Positions 27,910-39,550 are shown, counted from the first letter of the stretch. The stretch: DNA of 64,000 nucleotides from Minisyncoccota bacterium (GCA_021734905.1 JAIPIB010000001.1:136821-200820); one strand, 5' to 3'. The notes: generated from the sequence alone by a model not told the origin. Made by a program: numbers and translations.

Positions 27910-30027
27910 ATGGCAAAGAAAGAAGACAAAAAATCAACGAAAAAAGGTTCATATAGTGCTGATTCTATCCAGGTGCTTGAAGGTCTTGAACCGGTGCGAA
28001 AGCGCCCTGGGATGTATATCGGAACAACTGGCCCCGACGGACTACACCATCTTGTGTGGGAAGTTTTTGACAACTCGAGGGATGAGGCAATGGGTGGTTT
28101 TGCAAACCGTGTGGAGGTCGCCCTACTTCCAGGAAATTATATTCGCGTGGTTGATAACGGACGAGGTATTCCCGTTGATATGCACAAGCAGACAAAGGTC
28201 TCAGCACTTGAGACAATCATGACGACACTTCACGCAGGAGGAAAATTTGGTGGAGAAGGCTACAAAGTTTCTGGAGGACTTCATGGTGTAGGTGTATCTG
28301 TTGTGAATGCGCTTTCGACACATGTTATCGCTGAAATTCATCGTGATGGTGGATACTTCATGCAGGAGTACACCATTGGTAAACCGCGGACAAAGGTTAA
28401 GAAAGTTGGACCATCAAAACTTCAGGGTACAGTTATAACATTCAGCGCAGATGGTACTATTTTTCCTGAAATAGAATATGACTTTAAACGAATTGTGTCT
28501 CACCTGAGACAGCAGGCATATCTTGTGAGAGGGATGAAGATTTCTGTTATCGATGCGCGCCACATTGGAGGAGAAACTGAAATGTCGGAGAAAGAAGTTC
28601 AGAAATTTATTGAGAGTGTTCAGGGGAAACAGTACCTTTCCGACAATCACTTTGAGGTTCCTCATGAACATTTCTATTTTGAAGGAGGACTTAAATCACT
28701 CGTTGCCTTTAATAACCAGTATCAAAAACCAACGCACAGCAATATTTTCTATGTTGAAAAACAAGATTATGATTCAGCAGTACTTTCAGTTGAAGTAGCA
28801 CTTCAATACGTTGATGACATAACCCCCCGTATTAGTGCTTTCGCAAATAACATCTACAACCCAGAACATGGTACGCATGTTACTGGTTTTAAGACGGCGC
28901 TGACTCGGACTCTTAATAACTACGCAAAGAAAAATAACTTTTTCTCAGTAAAAGATAAAGATACAGGATTTACTGGAGATGATGTTCTTGAGGGGATTAC
29001 CGCTGTCGTGTCAGTAAAGATGCCGGAGATTCAATTTGAAGGTCAAACAAAATCCAAGCTTGGATCAGTAGAAGCGCGAAGCGCTGTGGAGAGTGTCTTT
29101 GGTGATGCTTTTAACGAATACCTCGAAGAAAACCCTGATGATGCAAAATCAATCATTAACAAAGTGATCATTGCTGTAAAGGCTCGAAAAGCAGCCAAAG
29201 CAGCTAAAGATTCAGTCTTAAGAAAGGGAGCGCTTGAAGGGATGACACTTCCCGGCAAGCTTGCAGACTGTCAATCAAAGAGTGCTGAAGAATCTGAAAT
29301 ATTTATTGTGGAGGGAGATTCTGCTGGTGGATCAGCAAAAATGGGGCGTGATCGTCGAACACAGGCGATTTTGCCACTTCGAGGTAAGATTCTCAATGTT
29401 GAGCGAGCTCGTCTCGATCGCATGCTTGCTTCAGAACAGGTAAAGAATCTCGTTGTTGCACTTGGTACAGCAATTGGAGATGTTTTTGATCTTTCAAAAC
29501 TTCGTTACCACAAAATAATTATCGCAACTGACGCTGATGTTGATGGTGCGCACATTCGTACACTTCTTCTAACACTCTTCTACAGATACTTTAGACCAAT
29601 TATTGATGGTGGATATTTGTACATTGCTCAACCACCACTCTATAAAATCAGTAAAGGAAAGGCTGTAATGTATGCGTACACCGATGAAGAAAAAGTTAAG
29701 TTTCTCGGTGCGGACGCAGTAGTAATCGAGAGTGATGAGCCAGAATCAGAAGGTGATTCTTCAGAGAGCGGTGATGAAGAAGTTAAGGAAGAAGTTGCAG
29801 GGAAGTCACAGAAGGTTCGAATCCAAAGATATAAGGGTCTTGGAGAAATGAATGCAGAAGAGCTATGGGAAACTACGATGAATCCAGAACATCGCGTTCT
29901 GAAGCAGGTGTCTGTTGTAGATGGATTCGAAGCAGATAGGGTATTTGATATTCTTATGGGAACAGATGTTTCAAGTAGGAAATCATTTATTCAGTCCAAT
30001 GCACACATGGCAAATCTTGATGTGTAG
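27910..30027 (+). CDS. gyrB: DNA gyrase subunit B.
   Basis: 'IQVLEGLEPVRKRPGMYIGTTGPDGLHHLVWEVFDNSRDEAMGG' (GHKL ATPase). 'ADCQSKSAEESEIFIVEGDSAGGSAKMGRDRRTQAILPLRGKILNVE' (TOPRIM). Confidence 0.95.
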   Translation: MAKKEDKKSTKKGSYSADSIQVLEGLEPVRKRPGMYIGTTGPDGLHHLVWEVFDNSRDEAMGGFANRVEVALLPGNYIRVVDNGRGIPVDMHKQTKVSALETIMTTLHAGGKFGGEGYKVSGGLHGVGVSVVNALSTHVIAEIHRDGGYFMQEYTIGKPRTKVKKVGPSKLQGTVITFSADGTIFPEIEYDFKRIVSHLRQQAYLVRGMKISVIDARHIGGETEMSEKEVQKFIESVQGKQYLSDNHFEVPHEHFYFEGGLKSLVAFNNQYQKPTHSNIFYVEKQDYDSAVLSVEVALQYVDDITPRISAFANNIYNPEHGTHVTGFKTALTRTLNNYAKKNNFFSVKDKDTGFTGDDVLEGITAVVSVKMPEIQFEGQTKSKLGSVEARSAVESVFGDAFNEYLEENPDDAKSIINKVIIAVKARKAAKAAKDSVLRKGALEGMTLPGKLADCQSKSAEESEIFIVEGDSAGGSAKMGRDRRTQAILPLRGKILNVERARLDRMLASEQVKNLVVALGTAIGDVFDLSKLRYHKIIIATDADVDGAHIRTLLLTLFYRYFRPIIDGGYLYIAQPPLYKISKGKAVMYAYTDEEKVKFLGADAVVIESDEPESEGDSSESGDEEVKEEVAGKSQKVRIQRYKGLGEMNAEELWETTMNPEHRVLKQVSVVDGFEADRVFDILMGTDVSSRKSFIQSNAHMANLDV

Positions 30028-30091: not shown

Positions 30092-31162
30092 TTAGTCTTG
30101 CAGTGCAACATGCCACACAGACATATTGTTATTTTTGTTTACGTCTTGTGAAGAATAAACCGTTGTTGGAATTCTAACGAAATCTTTTTTCACACTGTCA
30201 TCAATGGTAAAGCCAAGCGTAAATTCAACATGTTCCTGTGGCTTGAGTGCTACTTGTGGATCTGATTTATAGATGCCACCACCAGGGAGTACTATGCTAA
30301 AAGTCCACGTTGAAGATGTCTTTGTTCCAATATTACGAATATCAAATTTAATTGCATTTTTAAGATCGTAATTATAGGTAGGTGTGTAAACAAATACGTT
30401 ATTTTTGAGAATACCACTCCCAATCATTTTAACCTGTAAATCGGAGTATCCGTTTGGATTTGATTGCGGGTAAATTATTTTTTGTGTAAATACAGGAGTG
30501 GTTGCTGCCGGCTTTTGTACCGCAACTACTGCAGCTTCTGGTTCCATAATTTCTCCTTCAGGAATAGTGACGGTAGTCTCGTCAGTAGTTAGTTTTGTAT
30601 CTAATTCCTCCATAGCAAGAGATTCACCTGTAGGTATTGCAGCGTTTACAACGGTTACTTTTGTCTCACCAGTAACTGTTGTGCTGCCAACTTCGTTCGT
30701 AAATCTGACTTTGAGTGGAATGTCACTGAATCTGAGTTCATCAGAATTAACACTGAGAAAAAGTCCATTCACCGTTGAGGGAAGGGAAAGGACATCAGTA
30801 CAACTTACCGGCACAAGATCACCCTCAGCACTTCGAACAAGGAGATCTACTCCGTTGGTGCAGGTGTAGCTGAAATGATATTCACCTGGTTCTTTAAGAT
30901 CAGTCCATGTCACTTGGAATGATTCATCAGAGTTAACAACTGATTTCTCTGTAGAGAGTGAAAAATCCTCTGATGGCCGATACTGTGAAATGTTCTGCGC
31001 TATAGACGCGAGTGAAGAAAAAGCATGAGGCGCACGCTTAATACCCTCTGCAGCAAGCCACACAAGAAAGAAAATTGTGGTAAGAAAACCAATAATCGCA
31101 ATGATCTTGATTGCTGGCTCACGTAATTGTGATGTTTTCATACGCGGCATACTACAATGCAT
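30092..31162 (-). CDS. Hypothetical N-terminally membrane-anchored extracellular protein (beta-rich, Thr/Val-rich), divergent from the sortase gene.
   Basis: 'IKIIAIIGFLTTIFFLVWLAA' TM near the N-terminus. The true start may be the internal Met 21 nt downstream. Confidence 0.5.
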   Translation of the reverse strand: MHCSMPRMKTSQLREPAIKIIAIIGFLTTIFFLVWLAAEGIKRAPHAFSSLASIAQNISQYRPSEDFSLSTEKSVVNSDESFQVTWTDLKEPGEYHFSYTCTNGVDLLVRSAEGDLVPVSCTDVLSLPSTVNGLFLSVNSDELRFSDIPLKVRFTNEVGSTTVTGETKVTVVNAAIPTGESLAMEELDTKLTTDETTVTIPEGEIMEPEAAVVAVQKPAATTPVFTQKIIYPQSNPNGYSDLQVKMIGSGILKNNVFVYTPTYNYDLKNAIKFDIRNIGTKTSSTWTFSIVLPGGGIYKSDPQVALKPQEHVEFTLGFTIDDSVKKDFVRIPTTVYSSQDVNKNNNMSVWHVALQD

Positions 31163-31230: not shown

Positions 31231-31962
31231 TTGACAAAATTGAGAAATGGGGTACTATTTAAAGCTAAATTACTGAGCAATATGGAAGACATGATACATA
31301 AAGATAACGAATTACGAAATATGTCAAAACTTGAAGAGAGGATAGTTTTTTTCTTTGTGTGTATTGGTATTATTTCGATAACATATGGTGTACTTTTTGT
31401 ACTTGATTTTCTCCCAGAGAAGAAAGTGCTTGACACTGATACTGTCGCGCTTATGGATGAACAGCTAGAGAATCTTGAATCGAATGAAGTAACAGCTCTA
31501 GATGAGGAGTCCGTTCCTGTTGAAGCTCTGCCAATAAGCATTATTATTGACTCACTGGATAAGAAAGTAACAATTCTTAATCCAGATACTGATTCTATTT
31601 CAGCACTTGATGAAGCCCTTCTTTCTGGCGTTGTCCGCCATCCAGATTCAGCGGATTTTAATGAGAAGGGAACTATTTTTCTTCTTGGACATTCGAGCTA
31701 TCTTCCGGTAGTAAATAATAAAAACTTTCAAGCATTTAATGGAATTCAGAAACTTAAATGGGGAGACACGATTCGTCTTCGTTCATCTGATACTGAGTAT
31801 GTCTATAGTGTTGCAAGGGTTTACGAAGCAAAGGCGACAGATGCTGAAGTGAAGATTGAAAGAGGTGTTTCAAGCCTCATACTTTCAACATGCAACTCTT
31901 TTGGTACAAAAGATGACCGATTTATTGTTGAGGCTATGTTTGTCGAGTCACATAGTTTTTAA
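31231..31962 (+). CDS. Sortase-family transpeptidase with an N-terminal TM anchor.
   Basis: 'IFLLGHSSY' corresponds to the catalytic His of the sortase 'LAGH' motif. 'LILSTCNSFG' corresponds to the TLxTC Cys. 'DDRFIVEAMFVE' supplies the conserved Arg. TM 'IVFFFVCIGIISITYGVLFVL'. Start codon choice (31231/31282/31321) is uncertain. Confidence 0.7.
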   Translation: MTKLRNGVLFKAKLLSNMEDMIHKDNELRNMSKLEERIVFFFVCIGIISITYGVLFVLDFLPEKKVLDTDTVALMDEQLENLESNEVTALDEESVPVEALPISIIIDSLDKKVTILNPDTDSISALDEALLSGVVRHPDSADFNEKGTIFLLGHSSYLPVVNNKNFQAFNGIQKLKWGDTIRLRSSDTEYVYSVARVYEAKATDAEVKIERGVSSLILSTCNSFGTKDDRFIVEAMFVESHSF

Positions 31963-32246: not shown

Positions 32247-33374
32247 ATGGTCGTCAAGACAATCCGCGCCATAGTGGCGCTTCTTACCGTAGCAATGTTT
32301 GCTGGATGTGCCCAAATGGGCGGCGGAGGCGGTGCTGGGTCCTCAGAAGGACCAAGCGCCGCAGCTGTCGTGGCAGCACAACAAGTCGCTCTACAAGAGC
32401 AAGCCCGGGCGCAAGCAACTATCGCACCTTCACCGCTGGTTCAAAAAACCAGCATAACCGAACCAGCGGCAGCAAGATTGCCGTTGGCGAGAAAGGGAGA
32501 AATCTCTTCTACAAAGGTGCTCGCGAAGAACATTCGCGAAGCACTTGCGAAGGATCCTTCCGGTAACAAGAGGTTGGTCAAGGGGACCAATACCACAGCA
32601 GCTGGCTTTCTTGCTTCAGTGCAAGCCGCCGGTGGCACGGTGAATGGCCTCGAGGCACTTCCTGTATATCTTGAGTCGCTCATGGCTCGTGATATGCCTT
32701 CGGGCAAACTTACGATGTCGCGGGTGTTGTACTCGGCAGGGAAAGGTGTCGAGAAGTATCAGCTCGACATCAAGAATGGCTTCACACGCTTGGCGCACAA
32801 GGGAGAAAAGGGGTGGTACGACGCCAATACGGGTCGCCTTATTCTCGCTGGTGACTGTAGCAACAGTCCTCTCAGGTTTACCGAGGGGCCAGTTGCAACA
32901 GTGCCTGTGCAACAAGCACAAGCGACACAGCCAGCTCTTCAGTGCGGCGACGGCAAGAAGTATTTTGTCGTTCGTATCTTGCAAAAGGAAGCGATGGAAG
33001 TCGCAGGCGTCAGGGGAGCGGTCGCCGTTGAGCGGGCGAAGCGTCAGTATCATGACGGCGCATCACTTTCGGGTACATTCGCTGCTGAATTCAAGGCGAT
33101 GCTCGACGCGGGGGAGTTGTCTCGGAGCACAAAACCCCACAAGGTTTCAGTGAATCTACTGAAGCCAGACGGTGGTGTGGTCGAAGTCCTTCCCTTCGGT
33201 GCCGTCGTGGGAGAATATCGCAATGAATTGCCCAAGGAATTTCGTGGGCAGGATCAAATGCAGGTAGTTTTTCCCGAGTCGATCAAGCTTCTTCATTATC
33301 CCTTCAAGGATATGAGGGAGATGCGATCAAGCTTCGTCAATTGCGTGAATGTTTTTTACGCAATCGAGAAGTAA
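32247..33374 (+). CDS. Putative lipoprotein (375 aa) encoded by a GC-rich, compositionally foreign gene.
   Basis: Lipobox 'LTVAMFAGC'. Poly-Gly/Ala/Gln N-terminal linker. Coding GC is roughly 55-60% against about 40% for flanking genes (by eye). No family recognised. Confidence 0.55.
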   Translation: MVVKTIRAIVALLTVAMFAGCAQMGGGGGAGSSEGPSAAAVVAAQQVALQEQARAQATIAPSPLVQKTSITEPAAARLPLARKGEISSTKVLAKNIREALAKDPSGNKRLVKGTNTTAAGFLASVQAAGGTVNGLEALPVYLESLMARDMPSGKLTMSRVLYSAGKGVEKYQLDIKNGFTRLAHKGEKGWYDANTGRLILAGDCSNSPLRFTEGPVATVPVQQAQATQPALQCGDGKKYFVVRILQKEAMEVAGVRGAVAVERAKRQYHDGASLSGTFAAEFKAMLDAGELSRSTKPHKVSVNLLKPDGGVVEVLPFGAVVGEYRNELPKEFRGQDQMQVVFPESIKLLHYPFKDMREMRSSFVNCVNVFYAIEK

Positions 33375-33512: not shown

Positions 33513-35060
33513 ATGAAAAAAATATATTCAAAAATAAATATACTAGTACTTCGAGGTAGTCTCGTTGCGTTTTTTCTCGTTGTATTTTTTACTCAAAGTA
33601 TAGGATCTACACTTAGTGCTCAATATGCTTACGCCGATGAAGGGGGAGTTGGGAGCTCAGTATTTGTTTACATTGATGAGGGAGGTGTAGGAAGTAGCAA
33701 TTATGAACCATGGCCTGATATCGACTATGGTGCTTATACAGAAGGAGGGATTGGGAGTAGCTATGGTTCAGTTCAGTCTGTCACAAGTAATACTTCAGGT
33801 GCAGCCGTGTCATATGAATACATAGTCCAGTATGAGAATAGTCCATATGCATATTCGTATGCCCCGACAACATACTCATATAATCCGACGACGTATGGTT
33901 CATATCAGTATTCATACGCCCCAACAAACTACTCATATAATCCAACAACATACTCAGATAGATCATCAACATATTCAACCTATGATTATTCATATGATCC
34001 AAAAATATATAATGATTATGGTGACGTGCGATGTGATATTGATGCGAGTGATACACGTGTAGAAAAAGGTGATCGAATTACACTTGATTGGAATACGACG
34101 AATGCAGATGATGTTCGTATCAATCAGGGTATTGGAGATGTTTCTGATGATGGAAGTAGACGAGTCACGATAACGAAAGATACAACCTTCACACTTACGG
34201 CGCGCAATGGTTCTGATACGAGAACATGTCGTGTACAGGTTAGGGTTGACGATGATTCAGATGATATTCCTCGTTGTCGACTTACTATTTCAGATACCCG
34301 TATTCAGGTGGGAGAGCAAGTAACGCTCTCATGGGATAATCTTCGCACCGATCGACTTGTCCTTCGAGATAGTCATGGAATTACCATCGCTGATTCAAAG
34401 TATGATCGTACGCTCGATGAAGATGCAGGAGCACTCTTTCTTCGTCCAACAAGGCAGACAGATTATGTGGCAACGGTATATAACGGAAATGAACGACGAA
34501 CGTGTACTGTTGGTGTGCAAACTGACAACGTGGTAATTACGAGTGTGCGTTCACAGGGTGGTATTCCACTTGCTGGGGTTCCATATACAGGTTTTGAGGC
34601 TGGTCCAGCTCTAACAACTTTCTTTTATCTCGTCCTTATAATTTGGGGGGTTATTATTGCCTACGTCCTTGTGATAAGAAAAAAAGTACTTGTAAATGAA
34701 CCTGACGTCCTTGATGTATATACAAAAATGACAGAGACAAATATGCCAGAGATTTCTGTCGATATGTATGAACAATCACTAGCAACACCAAGTAATTTAC
34801 CCATTGATACTGATGAGAGTCAGGATGATGAAGACTCTCCATTACTTGATGAAACATTTCAAGCACTCGAAGGCTACGCACATGAGCATAAAACACTTGT
34901 TTCAAGTGAAGCACTTCGCTTTATTGAATCACAAGGAGGGACTATGGAAGCGCAGGTTGCAACTCTTGATCATGTTATAAAGTTGGCGAAAGCGCGATAC
35001 CCAATAGAAAATGGATGGACAGTTCTTAATAAAGATCGAGTAATCACCCTACTTGAATAG
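33513..35060 (+). CDS. Surface protein with signal peptide, 'EGG[VI]GSS' and Tyr-rich 'YSY(A/N)PTTY' repeats, and two Ig-like Cys-pair domains. It ends in a 'VPYTG' + TM + 'RKK' sortase-like sorting signal, followed by an extra ~125-aa C-terminal domain.
   Basis: 'MKKIYSKINILVLRGSLVAFFLVVFF' signal. 'SQGGIPLAGVPYTGFEAGPALTTFFYLVLIIWGVIIAYVLVIRKK' then 'VLVNEPDV...ITLLE'. Start taken at 33513 (signal-peptide Met); an in-frame ATG also exists at 33450. Confidence 0.6.
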   Translation: MKKIYSKINILVLRGSLVAFFLVVFFTQSIGSTLSAQYAYADEGGVGSSVFVYIDEGGVGSSNYEPWPDIDYGAYTEGGIGSSYGSVQSVTSNTSGAAVSYEYIVQYENSPYAYSYAPTTYSYNPTTYGSYQYSYAPTNYSYNPTTYSDRSSTYSTYDYSYDPKIYNDYGDVRCDIDASDTRVEKGDRITLDWNTTNADDVRINQGIGDVSDDGSRRVTITKDTTFTLTARNGSDTRTCRVQVRVDDDSDDIPRCRLTISDTRIQVGEQVTLSWDNLRTDRLVLRDSHGITIADSKYDRTLDEDAGALFLRPTRQTDYVATVYNGNERRTCTVGVQTDNVVITSVRSQGGIPLAGVPYTGFEAGPALTTFFYLVLIIWGVIIAYVLVIRKKVLVNEPDVLDVYTKMTETNMPEISVDMYEQSLATPSNLPIDTDESQDDEDSPLLDETFQALEGYAHEHKTLVSSEALRFIESQGGTMEAQVATLDHVIKLAKARYPIENGWTVLNKDRVITLLE

Positions 35061-35068
35061 GTGGGTGA

Positions 35069-35110
35069 CTACCGGATCAGCCAGACGTATATGTCTGGCT
35101 GATCCGGTAG
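35069..35110 (+). terminator. Hairpin terminator after the first VPYTG-protein gene.
   Basis: 'ctaccggatcagccagacgtatatgtctggctgatccggtag' is an 18-bp perfect stem. Confidence 0.6.
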
Positions 35111-35122
35111 GAGGTGTTATAT

Positions 35123-35150
35123 TGACATCGATACCATTATGCAGTATAGT
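35123..35150 (+). promoter_or_regulatory. Near-consensus sigma70-type promoter (TTGACA-17-TATAGT) driving module 2.
   Basis: 'ttgacatcgataccattatgcagtatagt'. Confidence 0.55.
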
Positions 35151-35156
35151 TTTGCA

Positions 35157-35343
35157 CAAATAAGTTCTCGGGGCGTTCTTAATTTTTTTCGGTCTCAAAC
35201 CGAAAAAACAAAAATTGGTAGTTGGCTCGCTGTATAGAAAATTTCTTTTAAAATTCTATTTAGGAAGCCGCCTATGATTGATGTAGGGGGAGGCGTCTGC
35301 ATTTTTGTGGACACGTTCATTGATATGAAAAGGAGGTCGCACC
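35157..35343 (+). promoter_or_regulatory. Conserved long 5' leader, copy B (paralog of 32052-32246).
   Basis: Same ordered blocks as copy A. It ends 'aaaaggaggtcgcaccATG'. Confidence 0.5.
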
Positions 35344-35835
35344 ATGACAAAACTTACGTGGCGTCGCTACTGGTGGAGTGTCATGATTGTGGCACTCCTT
35401 GCATTTATAGCAGGAATTGATTCTTCACCAAAAGTACGTGCTCTTGCAAAAGGTTATTACCAACTGGTGATTGACCTGAAAGGAGACTTTGCTGGAGCAG
35501 TCAAGGCACGCACTTCACCTAACAGCGAGTTTGAAAAAACTGTTGTTATGAAAACAAAACCTAGAGAGAGTCCTCCAAAACTAGAGGAGTCTTTGGAAGG
35601 TTTGACTCCTGAGCCAGCATCAAAAAAGGCTGAGTCAGAGAAGGTTGTGGTCCTGCCTTCGAAAGCGGAACCATTACCTACGAAGGTGAAGAAGGAAAAG
35701 AAGCAAGCGAACAAACCTGCCAAAGAATCCTCTTCGAGGAAACCTGCAGTTGTGTGTAGGGATGTCGATGTAGGACCATCCAAGGCAGACGCCATTCTTG
35801 GGATTCCTCCCAGAAGTGTATGTTCAAACTCATAG
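35344..35835 (+). CDS. Hypothetical membrane-anchored Lys/Pro/Glu-rich protein (GC-richer cargo gene).
   Basis: TM 'WWSVMIVALLAFIAGI'. Low-complexity 'KPRESPPKLEESLEGLTPEPASKKAESEK...'. The initiation context 'ggaggtcgcaccATG' is identical to that of the next gene. Confidence 0.45.
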   Translation: MTKLTWRRYWWSVMIVALLAFIAGIDSSPKVRALAKGYYQLVIDLKGDFAGAVKARTSPNSEFEKTVVMKTKPRESPPKLEESLEGLTPEPASKKAESEKVVVLPSKAEPLPTKVKKEKKQANKPAKESSSRKPAVVCRDVDVGPSKADAILGIPPRSVCSNS

Positions 35836-35849
35836 AAGGAGGTCGCACC

Positions 35850-36509
35850 ATGAAACGTAACAATTGGTTTTTGCCTGTTGTGGCAGTGCTTGCACTCGTC
35901 ACGAGCGGATATGCCTTTGCAGCATCGTGTACCAAGCACGAACAGAAAGGCTGTCTGGAAATTCAGGTCCTCAATGTCTCGTGGGAGAAGGGAAATTCAA
36001 ACCTTCAAGGACTAGACGGGCCGCCAAAAGATGACGACGACAGACTGAGACGCACCAAGAGTCTTGGGCCGGATTTGCTCAAGGCATACGAGAGAGGTGA
36101 TGTCGAAGCGGCAGCACCTCGGTCGTACCATGTCTTCTTTTGGAAACCGAACATGGACATCACGACTGAAGCGATGGCATCATGGCGGTTGAACGGGAAG
36201 ATAGTTTCACGTGGGGATGTTGAGGAGGTTACGGGGAAGGTCCCAGGGCCAAAATCGACTGGGCTTGGAGAACCAAACCGCGTCTATAGGGTTTGGGTGA
36301 CTGGAGAAAAAGCTTTTGCTCTTTCATTTCAGGCACCGTGGGACCTGTTCACCAAAGATACGGTGATTATGGTCACCCCTGAAGGCGGGAAAAGTGTCCA
36401 TCCAGGGAACGGAAAAGCGCTCTGGATCATGCCAAAATACCTGAACGAAACAATCAGGGTCGGGGCGTGGGATTGGGTATTGATGGCCTTTGTCCTCAAT
36501 CCTGAGTGA
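35850..36509 (+). CDS. Hypothetical secreted protein (signal peptide; Trp-rich; GC-richer cargo gene).
   Basis: 'MKRNNWFLPVVAVLALVTSGYAFAAS' signal. Start chosen at the Met preceded by 'gaaggaggtcgcaccATG'; the ORF-track start at 35820 is probably too long. Confidence 0.5.
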   Translation: MKRNNWFLPVVAVLALVTSGYAFAASCTKHEQKGCLEIQVLNVSWEKGNSNLQGLDGPPKDDDDRLRRTKSLGPDLLKAYERGDVEAAAPRSYHVFFWKPNMDITTEAMASWRLNGKIVSRGDVEEVTGKVPGPKSTGLGEPNRVYRVWVTGEKAFALSFQAPWDLFTKDTVIMVTPEGGKSVHPGNGKALWIMPKYLNETIRVGAWDWVLMAFVLNPE

Positions 36510-36534
36510 GGTTGTTCTTTTGAAGTATGGATCT

Positions 36535-36585
36535 ATCCAGCAGTCACACGAATGTGTGTGACTGCTGGATAATCTTTTTTATTCA
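36535..36585 (+). terminator. Hairpin with T-run after the secreted-protein gene.
   Basis: 15-bp stem 'atccagcagtcacac gaat gtgtgactgctggat' then 'aatcttttttatt'. Confidence 0.65.
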
Positions 36586-36644
36586 TTCTTTCAATACTCA
36601 TGCGTACATGATGTAGGTGGGAGTATTTAGAAGCATGAATCAAT
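36573..36644 (+). promoter_or_regulatory. Conserved ~65-nt element, copy B (paralog of 33422-33489).
   Basis: 'ttcattctttcaatactcatgcgtacatgatgtaggtgggagtatttagaagcatgaa'. Confidence 0.5.
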
Positions 36645-36651
36645 AATAAGT

Positions 36652-37719
36652 ATGAAAAATAATATTAAGACAAGTAGCAAAATGAGTACCTGGATGTATG
36701 TGTGTCTTACTGCGCTCATGCTTATGGTTGGACTCTATATAATTCTTCCTTCATTCGTATTAACAGAAAGAGTTGAGCGTGTTGTGTATACCACAATGAA
36801 TGCTGATGCGTTTGGTGGAGGTGGAGGTGGTGGTGGTGGTGGAGGTGGTGGTGGAGGCGATGCAGGTCCTGGTGTCGGAGACGCCGGCAGCGTTGGTGGA
36901 GGAGAAGGCGGAGTTGGAGTTTCTGCAGCTGCTGCACCAGCTGCGCCTAGTTCCCCTGCATCTGGAGGAGAAGGTGGGGTTGGGTCAAGCGTAGGAGCTT
37001 CAGGAGCATCTGGAGGAGAAGGTGGAGTTGGGTCAAGCGTAGGAGCTTCAGGAGCATCTGGAGGAGAAGGCGGAGTTGGGTCAAGCGTAGGAGACTCATC
37101 TAGTGTAGGTTCCTCTGGAGACACTGGAGGAGCTGGAGATACTACCTTGGCACTTGCTCCAGTCGTACCACCAGTAGTGCCTCCAGTCGTACCACCAGTA
37201 GTGCCTCCAGTAGTACCTCCAGTGGTTCCACCCGGAGGTGGAGGAGGGGGTGGCAGTAGTAGTGGTGGAGGTGGAGGAGGTTCAAGCTCACCTCGATGTG
37301 TTTTTACGGTTTCTGACAACGTTATCACTCTAGGTCAAACAGTAACGCTTTCATGGAATAACACGAGAACAAATAACATTACTATCATTGACAGTCTTGG
37401 TATTGTTTTTGTCGACACTGTTAACGCACCGATTTTTGATGAAGATACAGGAAGTGTCACCATTACTCCGATTCAATCAACAACATATACACTTACAGCA
37501 ATACGTGGAGCACGTACTCGAGATTGTTCCGTGGATGTTTCAATCGTGGATTTAAATAGTGCGAGATCTCAAGATGGAATTTCTCTATCTCGAGTCCCTT
37601 ATACCGGCATTGGAACAAATCTTTCTATAGTATTCTTTGGCGGTGTTGCGGCATGGCTTGCATCTGTAGGATACGCTCTCCATATTCGACGCAGAAAAGT
37701 AGTTACGGAAAAAATATAA
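36652..37719 (+). CDS. Surface protein with an N-terminal TM/signal, a very long Gly/Ser/Ala/Pro low-complexity region built from DNA tandem repeats, and one Ig-like Cys-pair domain. It ends in a 'VPYTG' + TM + 'RRRK' sortase-type sorting signal.
   Basis: '...SQDGISLSRVPYTGIGTNLSIVFFGGVAAWLASVGYALHIRRRKVVTEKI*'. The Ig-like domain is homologous to those in 33513-35060. 'GGEGGVGSSVGASGAS' occurs 3 times, 'VVPP' 6 times, and the Gly run is 14 residues. Confidence 0.6.
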   Translation: MKNNIKTSSKMSTWMYVCLTALMLMVGLYIILPSFVLTERVERVVYTTMNADAFGGGGGGGGGGGGGGGDAGPGVGDAGSVGGGEGGVGVSAAAAPAAPSSPASGGEGGVGSSVGASGASGGEGGVGSSVGASGASGGEGGVGSSVGDSSSVGSSGDTGGAGDTTLALAPVVPPVVPPVVPPVVPPVVPPVVPPGGGGGGGSSSGGGGGGSSSPRCVFTVSDNVITLGQTVTLSWNNTRTNNITIIDSLGIVFVDTVNAPIFDEDTGSVTITPIQSTTYTLTAIRGARTRDCSVDVSIVDLNSARSQDGISLSRVPYTGIGTNLSIVFFGGVAAWLASVGYALHIRRRKVVTEKI

Positions 37720-37786: not shown

Positions 37787-39550
37787 CTATAGAATTTTTG
37801 CTTCTATTTCAGTAATAAGATGATTGCCAAGTCTGCTCAGTGACATCTCTACAGATTCTCCTTTTCGTGATTCGAGAGTAACATTTTTCGCCTCAACTTC
37901 TTTGTCTCCGACAACAACAAAGTACGGAAGTCTGTCTTTTTTTGCGTTTCGAATTTTCTTCCCCATAGATTCGTTTGAGGTATCGAGAGAAGCACGAATT
38001 CCAATTGCTTTAAGCTCTGTGTAGATTTGTGCTGCGTACGCGTTATGTACTTCAGAAACAGGGATAATTTTGATTTGTTCTGGAGAAAGCCAGAGTGGGA
38101 AGTTGCCGCCAAAATGTTCAATAAGGAACGCTACAAACCTTTCGTGAGTAGAGAGTGGTGCGCGATGGATTACGAATACGTCGGTAGCTTTTTGACCATC
38201 GGCACCAATGTATGACAAACCAAATCGTTCTTTTGCAATGAAGTCGAGTTGGATTGTTGACATTGTTTCTTCTCGGCCAATAATGGATTTAAATTGTACG
38301 TCAACTTTAGGGCCGTAAAATGCAGCTTCATCGTCAACTTCGATGAACTTAACTCTCATTTCAACCAGTACCTCGCGGATAACGCTTTCAGCATGTTCCC
38401 AACTTTCAGGCTCATCAAAATATTTATCCATACGGTTTGGGTCCCATTTCGAAAGGCGGAACCAATAATCAGTGAGACCAAATGTCTTAAAATGATTCAT
38501 GGTGAGCTCTAGGACAGATTTGAATTCTTCTTTTATCTGATCTTTTCTGCAGTAGATATGTGCGTCATTCATATCGAGTCCACGAACGCGAAGAAGGCCT
38601 GCGAGTGTCCCAGAACGTTCATTGCGATATACGGTACCGTACTCCGCGAGTCGAATAGGGAAGTCGCGATAACTTTTTGGCGCATGCTGAAATATTCGGT
38701 GATGATGTGGACAGTTCATTGCTCTGAGGTAATAGGTTCCATCATCCATCTCCATTGGAGGGTACATGTCTTCTTTATAGTATGGAAGGTGCCCTGACGT
38801 TAGAAAAAGTTCTTCCTTTGCAATATGTGGTGTACTTACACGCTCGTATCCAGCTTTTCGTTCTGACTCAATAGCAAAAGTTTCTATTTCAGATTTAATG
38901 ATATTTCCTTTTGGCAACCACATGACGAGGCCTTTACCAACCATTTCATCTATAAAAAACAACTCCATTTCTTGACCAATCTTTCTATGGTCACGTTTTT
39001 TTGCCTCCTCTAGTTGAGCTAGATAGGCGCCAAGCTCATCTTTTGTGTTGAATGCAAGTCCATAGATACGGGTAAGCATCGGATTTTTTTCACTCCCGCG
39101 CCAGTATGCACCAGCGAGCGAAGTGAGTCTAAATGAATCAATATCAATATCGGTTGATGGAGAGTCACAGTGACCACCACGACAGAGATCGGTAAACTCA
39201 AAATGACCTTCACCTACGGTATAGAGAGTAATTTCTTCACCAGCTTTCTCAAGCTCATCGATGAGTTCTGTCTTGTAGAGATTATCTTTGAAAGTTTCTC
39301 GAGCTTCATCTGCAGTTACACTTTTATGTGAAAAATTTTTCCATGAAGAAAGTGCCTTCTTCATATTTTTTTCGATATTTTTTATATCATCATCTTTTGG
39401 GGCGGGTCCACCACTAAAATCAAAATCATAGTAGAAACCATTTTCGATAGCGGGGCCAATAGTAGGAAGAGCATGAGGGAAATCTCTCCGTATTGCGAGG
39501 GCAAGGAGGTGTGCGAGAGTGTGTCTTTTGTATTCCAGATTTTTATCCAT
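37787..39550 (-). CDS. thrS: Threonine--tRNA ligase (no N-terminal TGS domain; editing-domain HxxxH/CxxxH motifs present).
   Basis: 'RHTLAHLLA' and 'CRGGHC' editing motifs. 'DHRKIGQEMELF' and 'AMNCPHHHRIFQH...FPIRLAEYGTVYRNERSGTLAGLLRVRGLDMNDAHIY' are class II motifs. Confidence 0.9.
   Translation of the reverse strand: MDKNLEYKRHTLAHLLALAIRRDFPHALPTIGPAIENGFYYDFDFSGGPAPKDDDIKNIEKNMKKALSSWKNFSHKSVTADEARETFKDNLYKTELIDELEKAGEEITLYTVGEGHFEFTDLCRGGHCDSPSTDIDIDSFRLTSLAGAYWRGSEKNPMLTRIYGLAFNTKDELGAYLAQLEEAKKRDHRKIGQEMELFFIDEMVGKGLVMWLPKGNIIKSEIETFAIESERKAGYERVSTPHIAKEELFLTSGHLPYYKEDMYPPMEMDDGTYYLRAMNCPHHHRIFQHAPKSYRDFPIRLAEYGTVYRNERSGTLAGLLRVRGLDMNDAHIYCRKDQIKEEFKSVLELTMNHFKTFGLTDYWFRLSKWDPNRMDKYFDEPESWEHAESVIREVLVEMRVKFIEVDDEAAFYGPKVDVQFKSIIGREETMSTIQLDFIAKERFGLSYIGADGQKATDVFVIHRAPLSTHERFVAFLIEHFGGNFPLWLSPEQIKIIPVSEVHNAYAAQIYTELKAIGIRASLDTSNESMGKKIRNAKKDRLPYFVVVGDKEVEAKNVTLESRKGESVEMSLSRLGNHLITEIEAKIL

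What the first reader, a model, noticed from the sequence alone, without database searches (positions are those of the whole stretch)
34540..37700. 'VPYTG' as a candidate sortase recognition motif
Two paralogous surface proteins end with '...(S/A)RSQ(G/D)GI(P/S)L(A/S)(G/R)VPYTG' followed by a ~25-residue hydrophobic segment and a basic cluster (RKK or RRRK). This is the topology of LPXTG-type sorting signals, and a sortase gene opens the island. VPYTG is not one of the commonly cited motifs (LPXTG, NPQTN, LAXTG, LPXTA). It may define the specificity of this sortase.
Basis: inference. Interest (0 to 1): 0.55.

Follow-up and report, generated by a model that had tools for sequence, protein, structure and literature searches.

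The report
Candidate sortase signal VPYTG in Paceibacteria
Two surface proteins of an uncultured ultra-small bacterium carry a conserved VPYTG motif next to a membrane helix and lie beside an intact sortase gene, so they are probably that enzyme's dedicated substrates, but unlike any known sortase substrate most relatives carry a folded cytoplasmic domain after the signal.

Summary
The motif is real. VPYTG, a transmembrane helix and a basic cluster occur twice in the window (34578 and 37594), against 0 of 200 shuffles. The window comes from a Candidatus Pacebacteria (CPR) genome.

The upstream gene is a genuine sortase. It passes the Pfam threshold, has an invariant His-Cys-Arg triad and a sortase fold, but reaches the cut-off of no curated class.

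The second protein (P3) ends with a classical sorting signal. The first (P2) continues for about 125 residues into a conserved, confidently folded cytoplasmic domain.

The VPYTG-FEAGP-helix module is found in 939 protein clusters. P, T and G are invariant, and about 90% of members have cytoplasmic extensions. It occurs about once per genome. The sortase lies 1.7-6.5 kb upstream in 68 of 70 informative loci, and the module lies downstream of the sortase in 27 of 29. All of these loci share one conserved syntenic block.

VPxTG motifs are already known sortase sites, so the pentapeptide itself is not exotic. My best reading, at about 0.65, is a dedicated sortase-substrate pair with an unusual mid-protein signal.

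Side finding: in 16 relatives an A9 tract after the helix breaks the frame, which gives a short classical form and probably a slippage-dependent long form.

The parts
31291..31962 (+). Sortase gene. The ORF is open from 31231. The NCBI-annotated start gives 223 aa, and orthologs align from MSKLEER at 31321. It has an N-terminal membrane helix and a catalytic beta-barrel.
   Evidence: Pfam PF04203 scores 61.4 bits against a cut-off of 26.6. The identical protein is named 'sortase' in a Candidatus Pacebacteria MAG. The AF2 model has pLDDT 83, and its top Foldseek hits are all sortases.
31690..31692 (+). Catalytic His, in LLGHSSY (His124, numbering from 31321).
   Evidence: It aligns to the active-site His of B. 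anthracis SrtA 2kw8. It is invariant in 58 homologs and in 6 syntenic orthologs.
31891..31893 (+). Catalytic Cys, in LSTCNS (Cys191).
   Evidence: It aligns to the TLxTC cysteine of 2kw8, 2ln7 and 4d70 and is invariant.
31918..31920 (+). Catalytic Arg, in DDRFIVEA (Arg200).
   Evidence: It aligns to the conserved Arg of PDB sortases and is invariant.
33513..35060 (+). P2, the long VPYTG protein (515 aa as annotated; the ORF is open from 33450). Its order is: signal or anchor helix, low-complexity Gly/Ser/Tyr region, two Ig-like domains, VPYTG, TM helix, RKK, disordered linker, cytoplasmic domain A.
   Evidence: (100% identical to K9M10_00785), and 55 (AF2 domain map).
34029..34526 (+). Two Ig-like beta-sandwich domains of P2, each with a conserved Cys pair.
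   Evidence: AF2 pLDDT is above 90. Foldseek hits are tandem Ig domains. The Cys residues are conserved.
34578..34592 (+). VPYTG pentapeptide of P2. The putative sortase cleavage site is between Thr and Gly.
   Evidence: P, T and G are invariant in homologs. The motif lies in a low-pLDDT linker just before the TM helix.
34593..34685 (+). FEAGP, the TM helix and RKK of P2. This is the conserved extension of the signal module.
   Evidence: The consensus is VPYTGFEAGPxLTxxFYxxxxLWGxxxAYxLVxKK. AF2 predicts a helix at residues 365-393. A profile of this module finds 939 clusters.
34842..35054 (+). Cytoplasmic domain A of P2 (LExxAHxxxxLxSSxALRF...LDxVIxxAKxxYPxExGWxVxNKxR). It is a compact alpha/beta domain with no known family.
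   Evidence: It is conserved in homologs. AF2 pLDDT is 93-97. Nothing matches in Pfam, NCBIfam or PDB sequences.
36652..37719 (+). P3, the short VPYTG paralog (355 aa). Its order is: N-terminal helix, Gly-rich and (VPP)n low-complexity region, one Ig-like domain, classical tripartite sorting signal.
   Evidence: Orthologs with the same architecture occur in L002 and L016.
37594..37608 (+). VPYTG pentapeptide of P3.
   Evidence: GIxLSxVPYTG is retained in P3 orthologs although the residues after Gly differ from P2.
37621..37698 (+). TM segment and RRRK of P3. Only 6 residues follow before the stop codon.
30092..31162 (-). N-terminally anchored Ig/CARDB-like protein, transcribed divergently from the sortase. 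It is a constant member of the cassette; its role is unknown.
   Evidence: It is present next to the sortase in nearly all related loci. Precomputed Pfam lists PF07705 CARDB as weak or faint in orthologs. Conservation map.

Best explanation
The window carries a lineage-specific, dedicated sortase-substrate cassette of Paceibacteria (CPR/Patescibacteria). A membrane-anchored sortase with a complete His-Cys-Arg site is encoded a few genes upstream of one or two secreted Ig-domain proteins. The ectodomain of each ends in a flexible linker carrying [V/T/L/I]-P-Y-T-G, followed directly by a transmembrane helix and a basic cluster.

The most likely mechanism is inferred, not shown. The helix and basic residues hold the precursor in the membrane. 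The sortase cleaves between Thr and Gly, then transfers the ectodomain to a cell-envelope nucleophile: a peptidoglycan precursor or another protein. P3 is a classical substrate.

P2 is different, and so is most of the family. The same cut would split a bitopic protein, releasing or anchoring the ectodomain and leaving the helix plus a folded cytoplasmic domain in the membrane. The conserved FEAGP-helix part of the module, together with the equally conserved membrane helix of the sortase, suggests that recognition extends into the membrane. This last point is speculative.
For: (1) The sortase is real and looks active. It scores 61 bits on PF04203. His, Cys and Arg align to solved sortases and are invariant in 58 homologs. 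Its AF2 model superposes on SrtA of Listeria and B. anthracis, with TM-score normalised to the target of 0.71-0.82.

(2) The motif matches the sortase consensus at the critical P, T and G positions, and VPxTG sites are documented.

(3) Topology fits. The motif sits in a low-confidence linker a few residues before a predicted TM helix, which is followed by RKK or RRRK.

(4) The pentapeptide is the most constrained part of the module. P, T and G are invariant in 32 aligned modules. Among the 58 first-round homologs that carry the module, all have xP[Y/H]TG, and 127 of 130 further cluster representatives have xPYTG. It survives in paralogs whose flanks diverged: P3 has VPYTG-IGTN, L016 has VPYTG-FDAR, and L066 has VPETG.

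(5) Linkage is tight. The sortase is on the same strand, upstream of the module, in 68 of 80 substrate-anchored genome loci, which is 68 of 70 where enough upstream DNA is held. V/TPYTG plus a helix lies 1.7-6.5 kb downstream of the sortase in 27 of 29 sortase-anchored metagenome loci with enough downstream DNA.

(6) No other sorting-signal-like ORF is present in the window.

(7) A short form with classical C-terminal topology is maintained independently. It exists as a separate paralog here and in L002 and L016, and through an A9-tract truncation in 16 other genomes.
Against: Cleavage has not been shown. About 90% of family members carry 60-330 residues after the helix, with conserved domains, and no characterised sortase substrate that I know of has this. 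The residues after Gly and the helix itself are far more conserved than in ordinary LPXTG signals, so constraints other than sortase recognition are acting. All linked loci lie in one syntenic block flanked by housekeeping genes (PheT-GyrB ... ThrRS-DnaE), so adjacency could partly be inherited gene order. Two sortase loci lack the substrate nearby (L090 and L108), and one or two substrate loci lack a sortase within reach (L031 and possibly L032). The LPXTG-anchor models do not match. The sortase reaches no curated class cut-off.
Confidence: 0.65

Rival explanations
1. The VPYTG-FEAGP-helix module is simply the conserved juxtamembrane and transmembrane region of a bitopic receptor- or adhesin-like protein that is never cut by sortase. 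Its conservation would reflect helix packing, oligomerisation or signalling to the cytoplasmic domains. The sortase would be a neighbour only because gene order in this block is conserved, and it would act on other proteins elsewhere in the genome.
For: Most members have conserved cytoplasmic domains A and B after the helix. Conservation runs through the whole helix, with F, Y, W, G and Y positions nearly invariant. The entire neighbourhood, including housekeeping genes, is syntenic. L108 keeps the sortase without the neighbouring substrate. The LPXTG HMMs do not match.
Against: The invariant residues are exactly P, T and G of a sortase motif. Paralogs lose FEAGP but keep VPxTG. Short forms without any cytoplasmic domain are maintained. 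No alternative sortase substrate was seen in the window. A small CPR genome retaining a conserved active-site sortase (58-69% identity across the clade) argues for a conserved local substrate.
Confidence: 0.22
2. The sortase works as a pilin polymerase, like a class C enzyme. It would join VPYT- of one subunit to a lysine of another Ig-domain protein (P2, P3 or the CARDB-like neighbour) and build a covalent fibre rather than anchor a monomer to peptidoglycan.
For: VPxTG motifs are typical of pilus subunits (RrgC, Cpa). The substrates are made of Ig-like domains. Some relatives carry DUF11 repeats and give a weak hit to an isopeptide-forming fimbrial domain. Two substrates plus a third Ig-like membrane protein sit in one cassette.
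Against: No invariant lysine or pilin-type motif was found in the ectodomain alignments of P2 or of the CARDB-like protein. There is a single sortase and no second, housekeeping one in the locus. The sortase model shows no class C preference: its top structural hits are class A, and its best NCBIfam score is class D, far below cut-off.
Confidence: 0.1
3. The motif is a chance resemblance in two paralogs and has no functional meaning.
For: None beyond the fact that pentapeptides can recur in paralogs by descent.
Against: 0 of 200 shuffles give even one such arrangement. The module is conserved in 939 clusters at 50% identity, with P, T and G invariant.
Confidence: 0.01

Closest known systems
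LPXTG-type cell wall sorting signal with a housekeeping or dedicated sortase (Gram-positive SrtA and SrtB-D systems)
   Same: The signal is tripartite: an xPxTG pentapeptide, a hydrophobic helix and a basic cluster. The sortase is membrane-anchored and has a His-Cys-Arg triad. The substrate is encoded next to a dedicated sortase, as with SrtB-IsdC or the 'marine' class GN sortase and its single target (the comparison rests on established knowledge of these systems). P3 fits this in every sequence feature.
   Different: The first position is Val or Thr and the X position is a fixed Tyr. Residues after Gly (FEAGP) and the helix are strongly conserved. In P2 and about 90% of relatives the signal is not C-terminal but is followed by folded cytoplasmic domains. 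The sortase reaches no curated class cut-off, and the LPXTG anchor HMMs do not match. The organism is a CPR bacterium whose envelope chemistry is unknown.
Pilin sorting signals VPDTG (S. pneumoniae RrgC) and VPPTG (S. pyogenes Cpa)
   Same: They share the V-P-x-T-G core, which class C and class B sortases recognise experimentally (PMC5640630, PMC3019223).
   Different: Those proteins are pilus subunits with short C-terminal tails and variable helices. No pilin lysine motif was found here.
Membrane-retained C-peptide of sortase substrates sensed by a two-component kinase in Streptococcus gordonii (as summarised in PMC11326707)
   Same: It is a precedent for the fragment left in the membrane after sortase cleavage having a function of its own.
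   Different: There the remnant is only the roughly 30-residue signal. Here it would carry a conserved 70-200-residue cytoplasmic module, and any signalling role is conjecture.
Two protein isoforms from an A-rich slippery tract, as in dnaX tau/gamma (E. coli A_AAA_AAG -1 frameshift; Thermus A9 transcriptional slippage). This comparison is from my own knowledge.
   Same: In 16 relatives an A9 tract, containing A_AAA_AAG or A_AAA_AAC in frame, separates a short product from a conserved downstream reading frame that is reachable by a -1 shift.
   Different: This is not seen in the window itself, where P2 has an in-frame A7. No expression data exist. There is no consistent downstream RNA structure.

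Membership tests
Sortase superfamily (Pfam PF04203) | Profile match above the curated threshold | tested here: met
   61.4 bits against a cut-off of 26.6, covering profile positions 2-123 of 125.
Sortase superfamily (Pfam PF04203) | Catalytic His, Cys (TLxTC-like) and Arg present | tested here: met
   LLGHSSY, LSTCNS and DDRFIV align to the active-site residues of 2kw8, 2ln7 and 4d70. H124, C191 and R200 are invariant in 58 sequences.
Sortase superfamily (Pfam PF04203) | Eight-stranded beta-barrel sortase fold with an N-terminal membrane anchor | tested here: met
   The AF2 model has pLDDT 83 and an N-terminal helix at residues 3-29. The listed top Foldseek hits (50 shown) are all sortases, and 127 matches have E <= 0.001.
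A curated sortase class (A, B, C, D, E, GN; NCBIfam subfamily models) | Score above the class model cut-off | tested here: not met
   The best is class D at 38 bits against a cut-off of 140. Class E scores 26 against 160 and class C 22 against 160. TIGR01076 scores 30.5 against 39.35. Structural hits mix classes A, E, C and D.
LPXTG-type cell wall sorting signal | Pentapeptide of the form [aliphatic/aromatic]-P-x-T-G | tested here: met
   VPYTG is present in both proteins. P, T and G are invariant in relatives.
LPXTG-type cell wall sorting signal | Hydrophobic membrane segment directly after the motif, then a cluster of basic residues | tested here: met
   The sequence shows this directly. AF2 predicts a helix at residues 365-393 in P2, followed by RKK. 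P3 has RRRK.
LPXTG-type cell wall sorting signal | Signal lies at the extreme C-terminus, with only a few residues after the basic cluster | tested here: not met
   This is met for P3, which has 6 residues after RRRK. It is not met for P2, which has 124 residues after RKK including a folded domain. In the family, only 18 of 188 proteins have 45 or fewer residues after the pentapeptide, and most of those are A9-tract truncations.
LPXTG-type cell wall sorting signal | Match to the curated anchor models (PF00746 / TIGR01167) | tested here: not met
   Neither protein hits at E <= 0.1. The only weak hit is NF033073 at 13.8 bits against a cut-off of 48.
LPXTG-type cell wall sorting signal | N-terminal secretion signal | tested here: inconclusive
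   Both proteins have an N-terminal hydrophobic helix. No signal-peptide predictor was available.
LPXTG-type cell wall sorting signal | Cleavage between Thr and Gly and covalent transfer by sortase | not testable with these tools
   This needs biochemistry or proteomics.
Dedicated sortase-substrate gene pair | Substrate gene conserved next to the sortase across genomes, about one per genome | tested here: met
   68 of 70 and 27 of 29 informative loci. 148 module-encoding stretches in 185,579 species genomes, with the 80 kept loci all on distinct contigs. The caveat is a single syntenic block.

The most novel reading that the evidence does not exclude
In this CPR clade the sortase signal is embedded in the middle of a bitopic protein. 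Sortase cleavage would then separate a surface-displayed Ig-domain ectodomain from a membrane-tethered stub bearing conserved cytoplasmic domains of unknown family (A, and in many relatives also B). That would couple surface display to an intracellular function such as signalling, quality control or localisation. The cell appears to tune the ratio of 'signal-only' to 'signal-plus-cytoplasmic-domain' forms, either with two paralogs (this window) or with a selected A9 slippage tract (16 relatives). Neither a sortase substrate with a folded cytoplasmic domain nor slippage-controlled isoforms of one is described in the curated libraries searched or in the papers retrieved.
Probability: 0.4. Interest if true: 0.75.

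Novelty: new variant of a known kind. Interest (0 to 1): 0.55.

Why it matters
Sortases are present in more than half of CPR genomes (PMC6744442). None of the papers retrieved here names a sorting motif or a substrate for a CPR sortase, and 'VPYTG' appears in no relevant paper.

This locus gives a concrete, testable enzyme-substrate pair for a large uncultured clade. The extended motif GIxL[ST]x-VPYTG-FEAGP-helix has no model in Pfam or NCBIfam and could be turned into an annotation profile.

If cleavage is confirmed, the family would show that a sorting signal need not be C-terminal, and that sortase can act as a site-specific 'splitter' of transmembrane proteins. The sortase may also be of interest as a ligation tool with a different recognition sequence. 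The A9-tract isoform switch would add a case of programmed slippage in a surface-protein gene of reduced genomes.

Tried and rejected
- Pfam and NCBIfam scans of P2, P3, the three intervening ORFs and the CARDB-like protein gave nothing above threshold. Scans of long relatives found only DUF11 repeats in some ectodomains.
- A profile of cytoplasmic domain A against PDB sequences gave only noise, E >= 0.86.
- Foldseek of the whole P2 model against PDB returned only generic tandem Ig hits, so the cytoplasmic domain's fold stays unidentified.
- The third homolog search, with the P3 C-terminal half, returned nothing at E <= 0.001, not even the protein itself. P3 orthologs were instead found in fetched loci.
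- A literature search for 'VPYTG' returned two unrelated eukaryotic papers. CPR papers mention sortase only in passing. The new CPR 'Pam' pilus is a different, donor-strand-exchange system in other classes.
- I looked for a pilin-type invariant lysine in P2 and in the CARDB-like neighbour and found none.
- I looked for a stimulatory RNA structure downstream of the A9 tracts. The mean z-score was -0.5, with no consistent hairpin.
- I rejected homopolymer assembly error as the cause of the A9 frame breaks. 16 of 18 shifted genes have exactly A9, all shift to the same frame, and they fall at three different positions. No in-frame gene has an A10 tract, and one locus carries the same frame break at an A7 tract. 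Only 25 A9/T9 tracts exist in 2.0 Mb of related loci.
- I could not run a complex prediction of sortase with peptide, and I could not scan a complete genome for further substrates.

Full report
**What is in the window.** The region lies in a Candidatus Pacebacteria (Parcubacteria, CPR/Patescibacteria) genome. P2 is 100% identical to NCBI protein K9M10_00785, and the upstream gene to a protein that NCBI names sortase.

Between gyrB (27910-30027) and thrS (37787-39550, minus strand) sits a cassette of seven genes:
- an N-terminally anchored Ig/CARDB-like protein (30092-31162, minus strand);
- the sortase (31231/31291-31962);
- a lipoprotein-like ORF (32247-33374);
- P2 (33450/33513-35060);
- two small ORFs (35344-35835 and 35820-36509);
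- P3 (36652-37719).

**Check of the observation.** Both proteins contain ...RSQxGIxLxx-VPYTG, followed by a stretch of about 24 uncharged residues and then RKK or RRRK. They are paralogs, with 39% identity over one Ig-like domain plus the signal. A pattern of [VLI]PxTG, an uncharged 17-mer and a basic pair is found twice in the six-frame translation and in none of 200 codon-shuffled windows. No other ORF in the 64 kb has this arrangement.

The description is wrong in one important respect. P3 ends 36 residues after the pentapeptide, but P2 runs on for 155 residues.

**The sortase.** It passes the Pfam sortase threshold, 61 bits against 26.6. It reaches no NCBIfam class cut-off; the best score is class D at 38 bits against 140. 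Its His (LLGHSSY), Cys (LSTCNS) and Arg (DDRFIV) align to the catalytic residues of B. anthracis SrtA and SrtD and of C. perfringens SrtD. All three are invariant in 58 homologs.

The AF2 model (pLDDT 83) has an N-terminal membrane helix and a beta-barrel. The barrel matches class A sortases best, with class E, C and D structures close behind. The family is large and well conserved: 1738 hits, with the top 120 at 58-69% identity.

**The substrate family.** Sixty homologs of P2 show 47 VPYTG, 7 TPYTG and single L/I/M-PYTG and VPHTG variants. Conservation continues as FEAGPxLTxxFYxxxxLWGxxxAYxLVxKK.

A 57-position profile of this module was searched against 1.84 billion cluster representatives. 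It finds 939 proteins at E <= 1e-3 and 329 at E <= 1e-10. Of 130 new ones, 111 have VPYTG and 125 have FEAGP or FDAGP.

Ectodomains differ between members: tandem Ig-like domains here, DUF11 repeats elsewhere.

The part after the helix is the surprise. Of 188 proteins, only 18 have 45 or fewer residues after the pentapeptide; 31 have 60-90, 47 have 130-170, and 68 have 270-340. There is a single helix.

The tails contain a conserved domain A, present in P2 and modelled at pLDDT 93-97. Many also contain a domain B. Neither matches Pfam, NCBIfam or PDB sequences.

In the P2 model, VPYTG lies in a low-confidence linker between the second Ig domain and the helix. That is where a protease-accessible site would be expected.

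**Linkage.** The pattern [VT]PYTGF[ED]AG matched 153 stretches in 185,579 species genomes, and 148 of them encode a relative of the module. All of the 80 loci kept are Paceibacteria, Kaiserbacteria, Nomurabacteria or Parcubacteria-type MAGs, or MAGs with evidently wrong labels, each on a separate contig.

A sortase of this family lies upstream on the same strand in 68 of these 80 loci. Ten of the twelve exceptions simply lack upstream sequence, which leaves L031 and perhaps L032.

In the reverse direction, 29 sortase-anchored metagenome loci had at least 3.4 kb of downstream DNA. Of these, 27 have V/TPYTG plus a helix 1.7-6.5 kb downstream. L090 and L108 do not, and L108 is a rearranged locus in which dnaE abuts the sortase.

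There is a caveat. All these loci share the block PheT-GyrB-CARDB-like(-)-sortase-...-VPYTG protein-ThrRS(-)-DnaE(-). Adjacency is therefore not independent evidence in each genome.

**Why I still favour a sortase signal.**
- The invariant residues are exactly the P, T and G that define sortase motifs.
- VPDTG and VPPTG are experimentally recognised motifs.
- Paralogs that have lost FEAGP keep the pentapeptide: P3 has VPYTG-IGTN, its orthologs in L002 and L016 have VPYTG-FDAR, and a paralog in L066 has VPETG.
- A conserved, apparently active sortase in a reduced genome needs a substrate, and none other is visible nearby.
- A classical short form is maintained as well (see the next section).

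Against this reading stand the cytoplasmic domains, the unusually conserved helix, the shared synteny and the absence of any experiment. I put the sortase-substrate reading at about 0.65. The 'uncleaved bitopic receptor' reading is at about 0.2. A pilus-polymerisation variant is at about 0.1; no invariant lysine was found.

**A side finding that bears on the interpretation.** In relatives that look short-tailed, domains A (and often B) are still encoded immediately downstream in another frame. Among 106 distinct module genes:
- 84 have domain A in frame;
- 4 lack it (P3, its two orthologs, and a Kaiserbacteria form);
- 18 have it frame-shifted.

Of the 18 shifted genes, 16 break at a tract of exactly nine A's, and all 16 require the same -1 shift, equivalent to one extra A. 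One further locus (L041) has the same shift at an A7 tract. The A9 tracts sit at three different positions between the helix and domain A. At the main site the tract contains the classical slippery heptamer A_AAA_AAG or A_AAA_AAC in frame.

Only 25 A9/T9 tracts exist in 2.0 Mb of related loci, so about two thirds of them are at this one site. No in-frame gene has A10, which argues against assembly error. There is no consistent downstream RNA structure, which fits transcriptional slippage or unstimulated frameshifting better than stimulated frameshifting.

These genomes therefore probably make a short, classical sorting-signal form by default and a long form by slippage. The window genome encodes the two forms as separate paralogs instead: P3 short, and P2 long with an in-frame A7. 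That both forms are kept by two different genetic routes suggests both are needed.

**Comparison with what is known.** The system works like a dedicated sortase with an LPXTG-type signal. P3 meets every sequence-level feature of such a signal except the curated HMMs. P2 and most relatives fail the 'C-terminal' criterion. The sortase is a member of the superfamily but of no curated class.

Sortases are known to be common in CPR (PMC6744442). However, I found no paper and no curated model that describes a CPR sorting motif, this module, or its cytoplasmic domains. A functional membrane remnant of a sortase substrate has a precedent in S. gordonii, but not one with a folded cytoplasmic domain.

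**Verdict.** This is a real, conserved, lineage-specific feature. The pentapeptide itself is an ordinary variant of LPXTG. The architecture around it is not ordinary. I class it as a new variant of a known kind, with interest 0.55.

Noticed in passing
Related loci L008, L014, L015, L018, L023, L028, L043, L045, L060, L067, L068, L070, L073, L075, L119, L122 (for example L075:10159-10167). The window equivalent, 34679-34685, is an in-frame A7.: In 16 relatives an A9 tract just after the membrane helix, or just before cytoplasmic domain A, breaks the reading frame. The conserved domains continue in the -1 frame. The tract contains A_AAA_AAG or A_AAA_AAC in frame, occurs at three positions, and accounts for about two thirds of all A9/T9 tracts in 2.0 Mb of loci. 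One further locus (L041) has the same break at an A7 tract. This looks like programmed slippage (transcriptional or ribosomal) or a phase-variable tract that gives short and long isoforms.
   Followed up: partly
window 34842-35054 (domain A). Domain B occurs only in relatives, for example P0187 residues about 985-1090.: There are two conserved cytoplasmic domains with no match in Pfam, NCBIfam or PDB sequences. Domain A (LExxAHxxxxLxSSDAxRF...YPxEDGWxxxN) is modelled at pLDDT above 93. Domain B (GSLAEAIxxGNxxAAYxMIxxRPMxALADAAADLD...AVKMAIMKA) is very strongly conserved. Their function is unknown.
   Followed up: partly
window 30092-31162 (-): An N-terminally anchored protein with Ig-like and CARDB-like domains is transcribed divergently from the sortase in nearly every related locus. 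It is a constant member of the cassette, with no sorting motif and no invariant lysine.
   Followed up: partly
window 31321-31410 (sortase N-terminal helix): The membrane anchor of the sortase (SKLEERxVFFFVxVGVIxLTYGxFFxIDFLPEKP) is unusually conserved, with invariant V, G, T, F, P and E. The substrate's helix is equally conserved. This hints at recognition within the membrane.
   Followed up: no
window 32247-33374 (+), 35344-35835 (+), 35820-36509 (+): Three accessory ORFs lie between the sortase and the substrates. The first is lipoprotein-like (lipobox FAGC) and lies in a stretch richer in G+C than its surroundings (0.47 against about 0.41). Homologs of the first and third recur in only some related cassettes (L009, L010, L016, L023, L032, L034, L085), so the interior of the cassette is variable.
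   Followed up: partly
window 33600-34010 and 36800-37290: The N-terminal halves of P2 and P3 are low-complexity: EGG(V/I)GSS repeats, Tyr/Ser/Thr/Pro-rich YSYxPTTY repeats, a (VPP)6 run and poly-Gly. AF2 gives pLDDT below 50 there. A long antisense ORF (36735-37328) is a by-product of this composition.
   Followed up: no
L066:11002-12789: A further paralog, directly downstream of the main VPYTG gene, carries VPETG followed by a helix, and possibly a second helix. This shows that the Tyr is not absolutely required in the family.
   Followed up: partly
Record titles of L009, L011, L013, L025, L037 and others: Many MAGs holding this Paceibacteria-type locus are labelled 'uncultured Candidatus Saccharibacteria', Acidimicrobiales, Patiriisocius or Azotimanducaceae. 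These are probably generic labels or mis-binned contigs.
   Followed up: no
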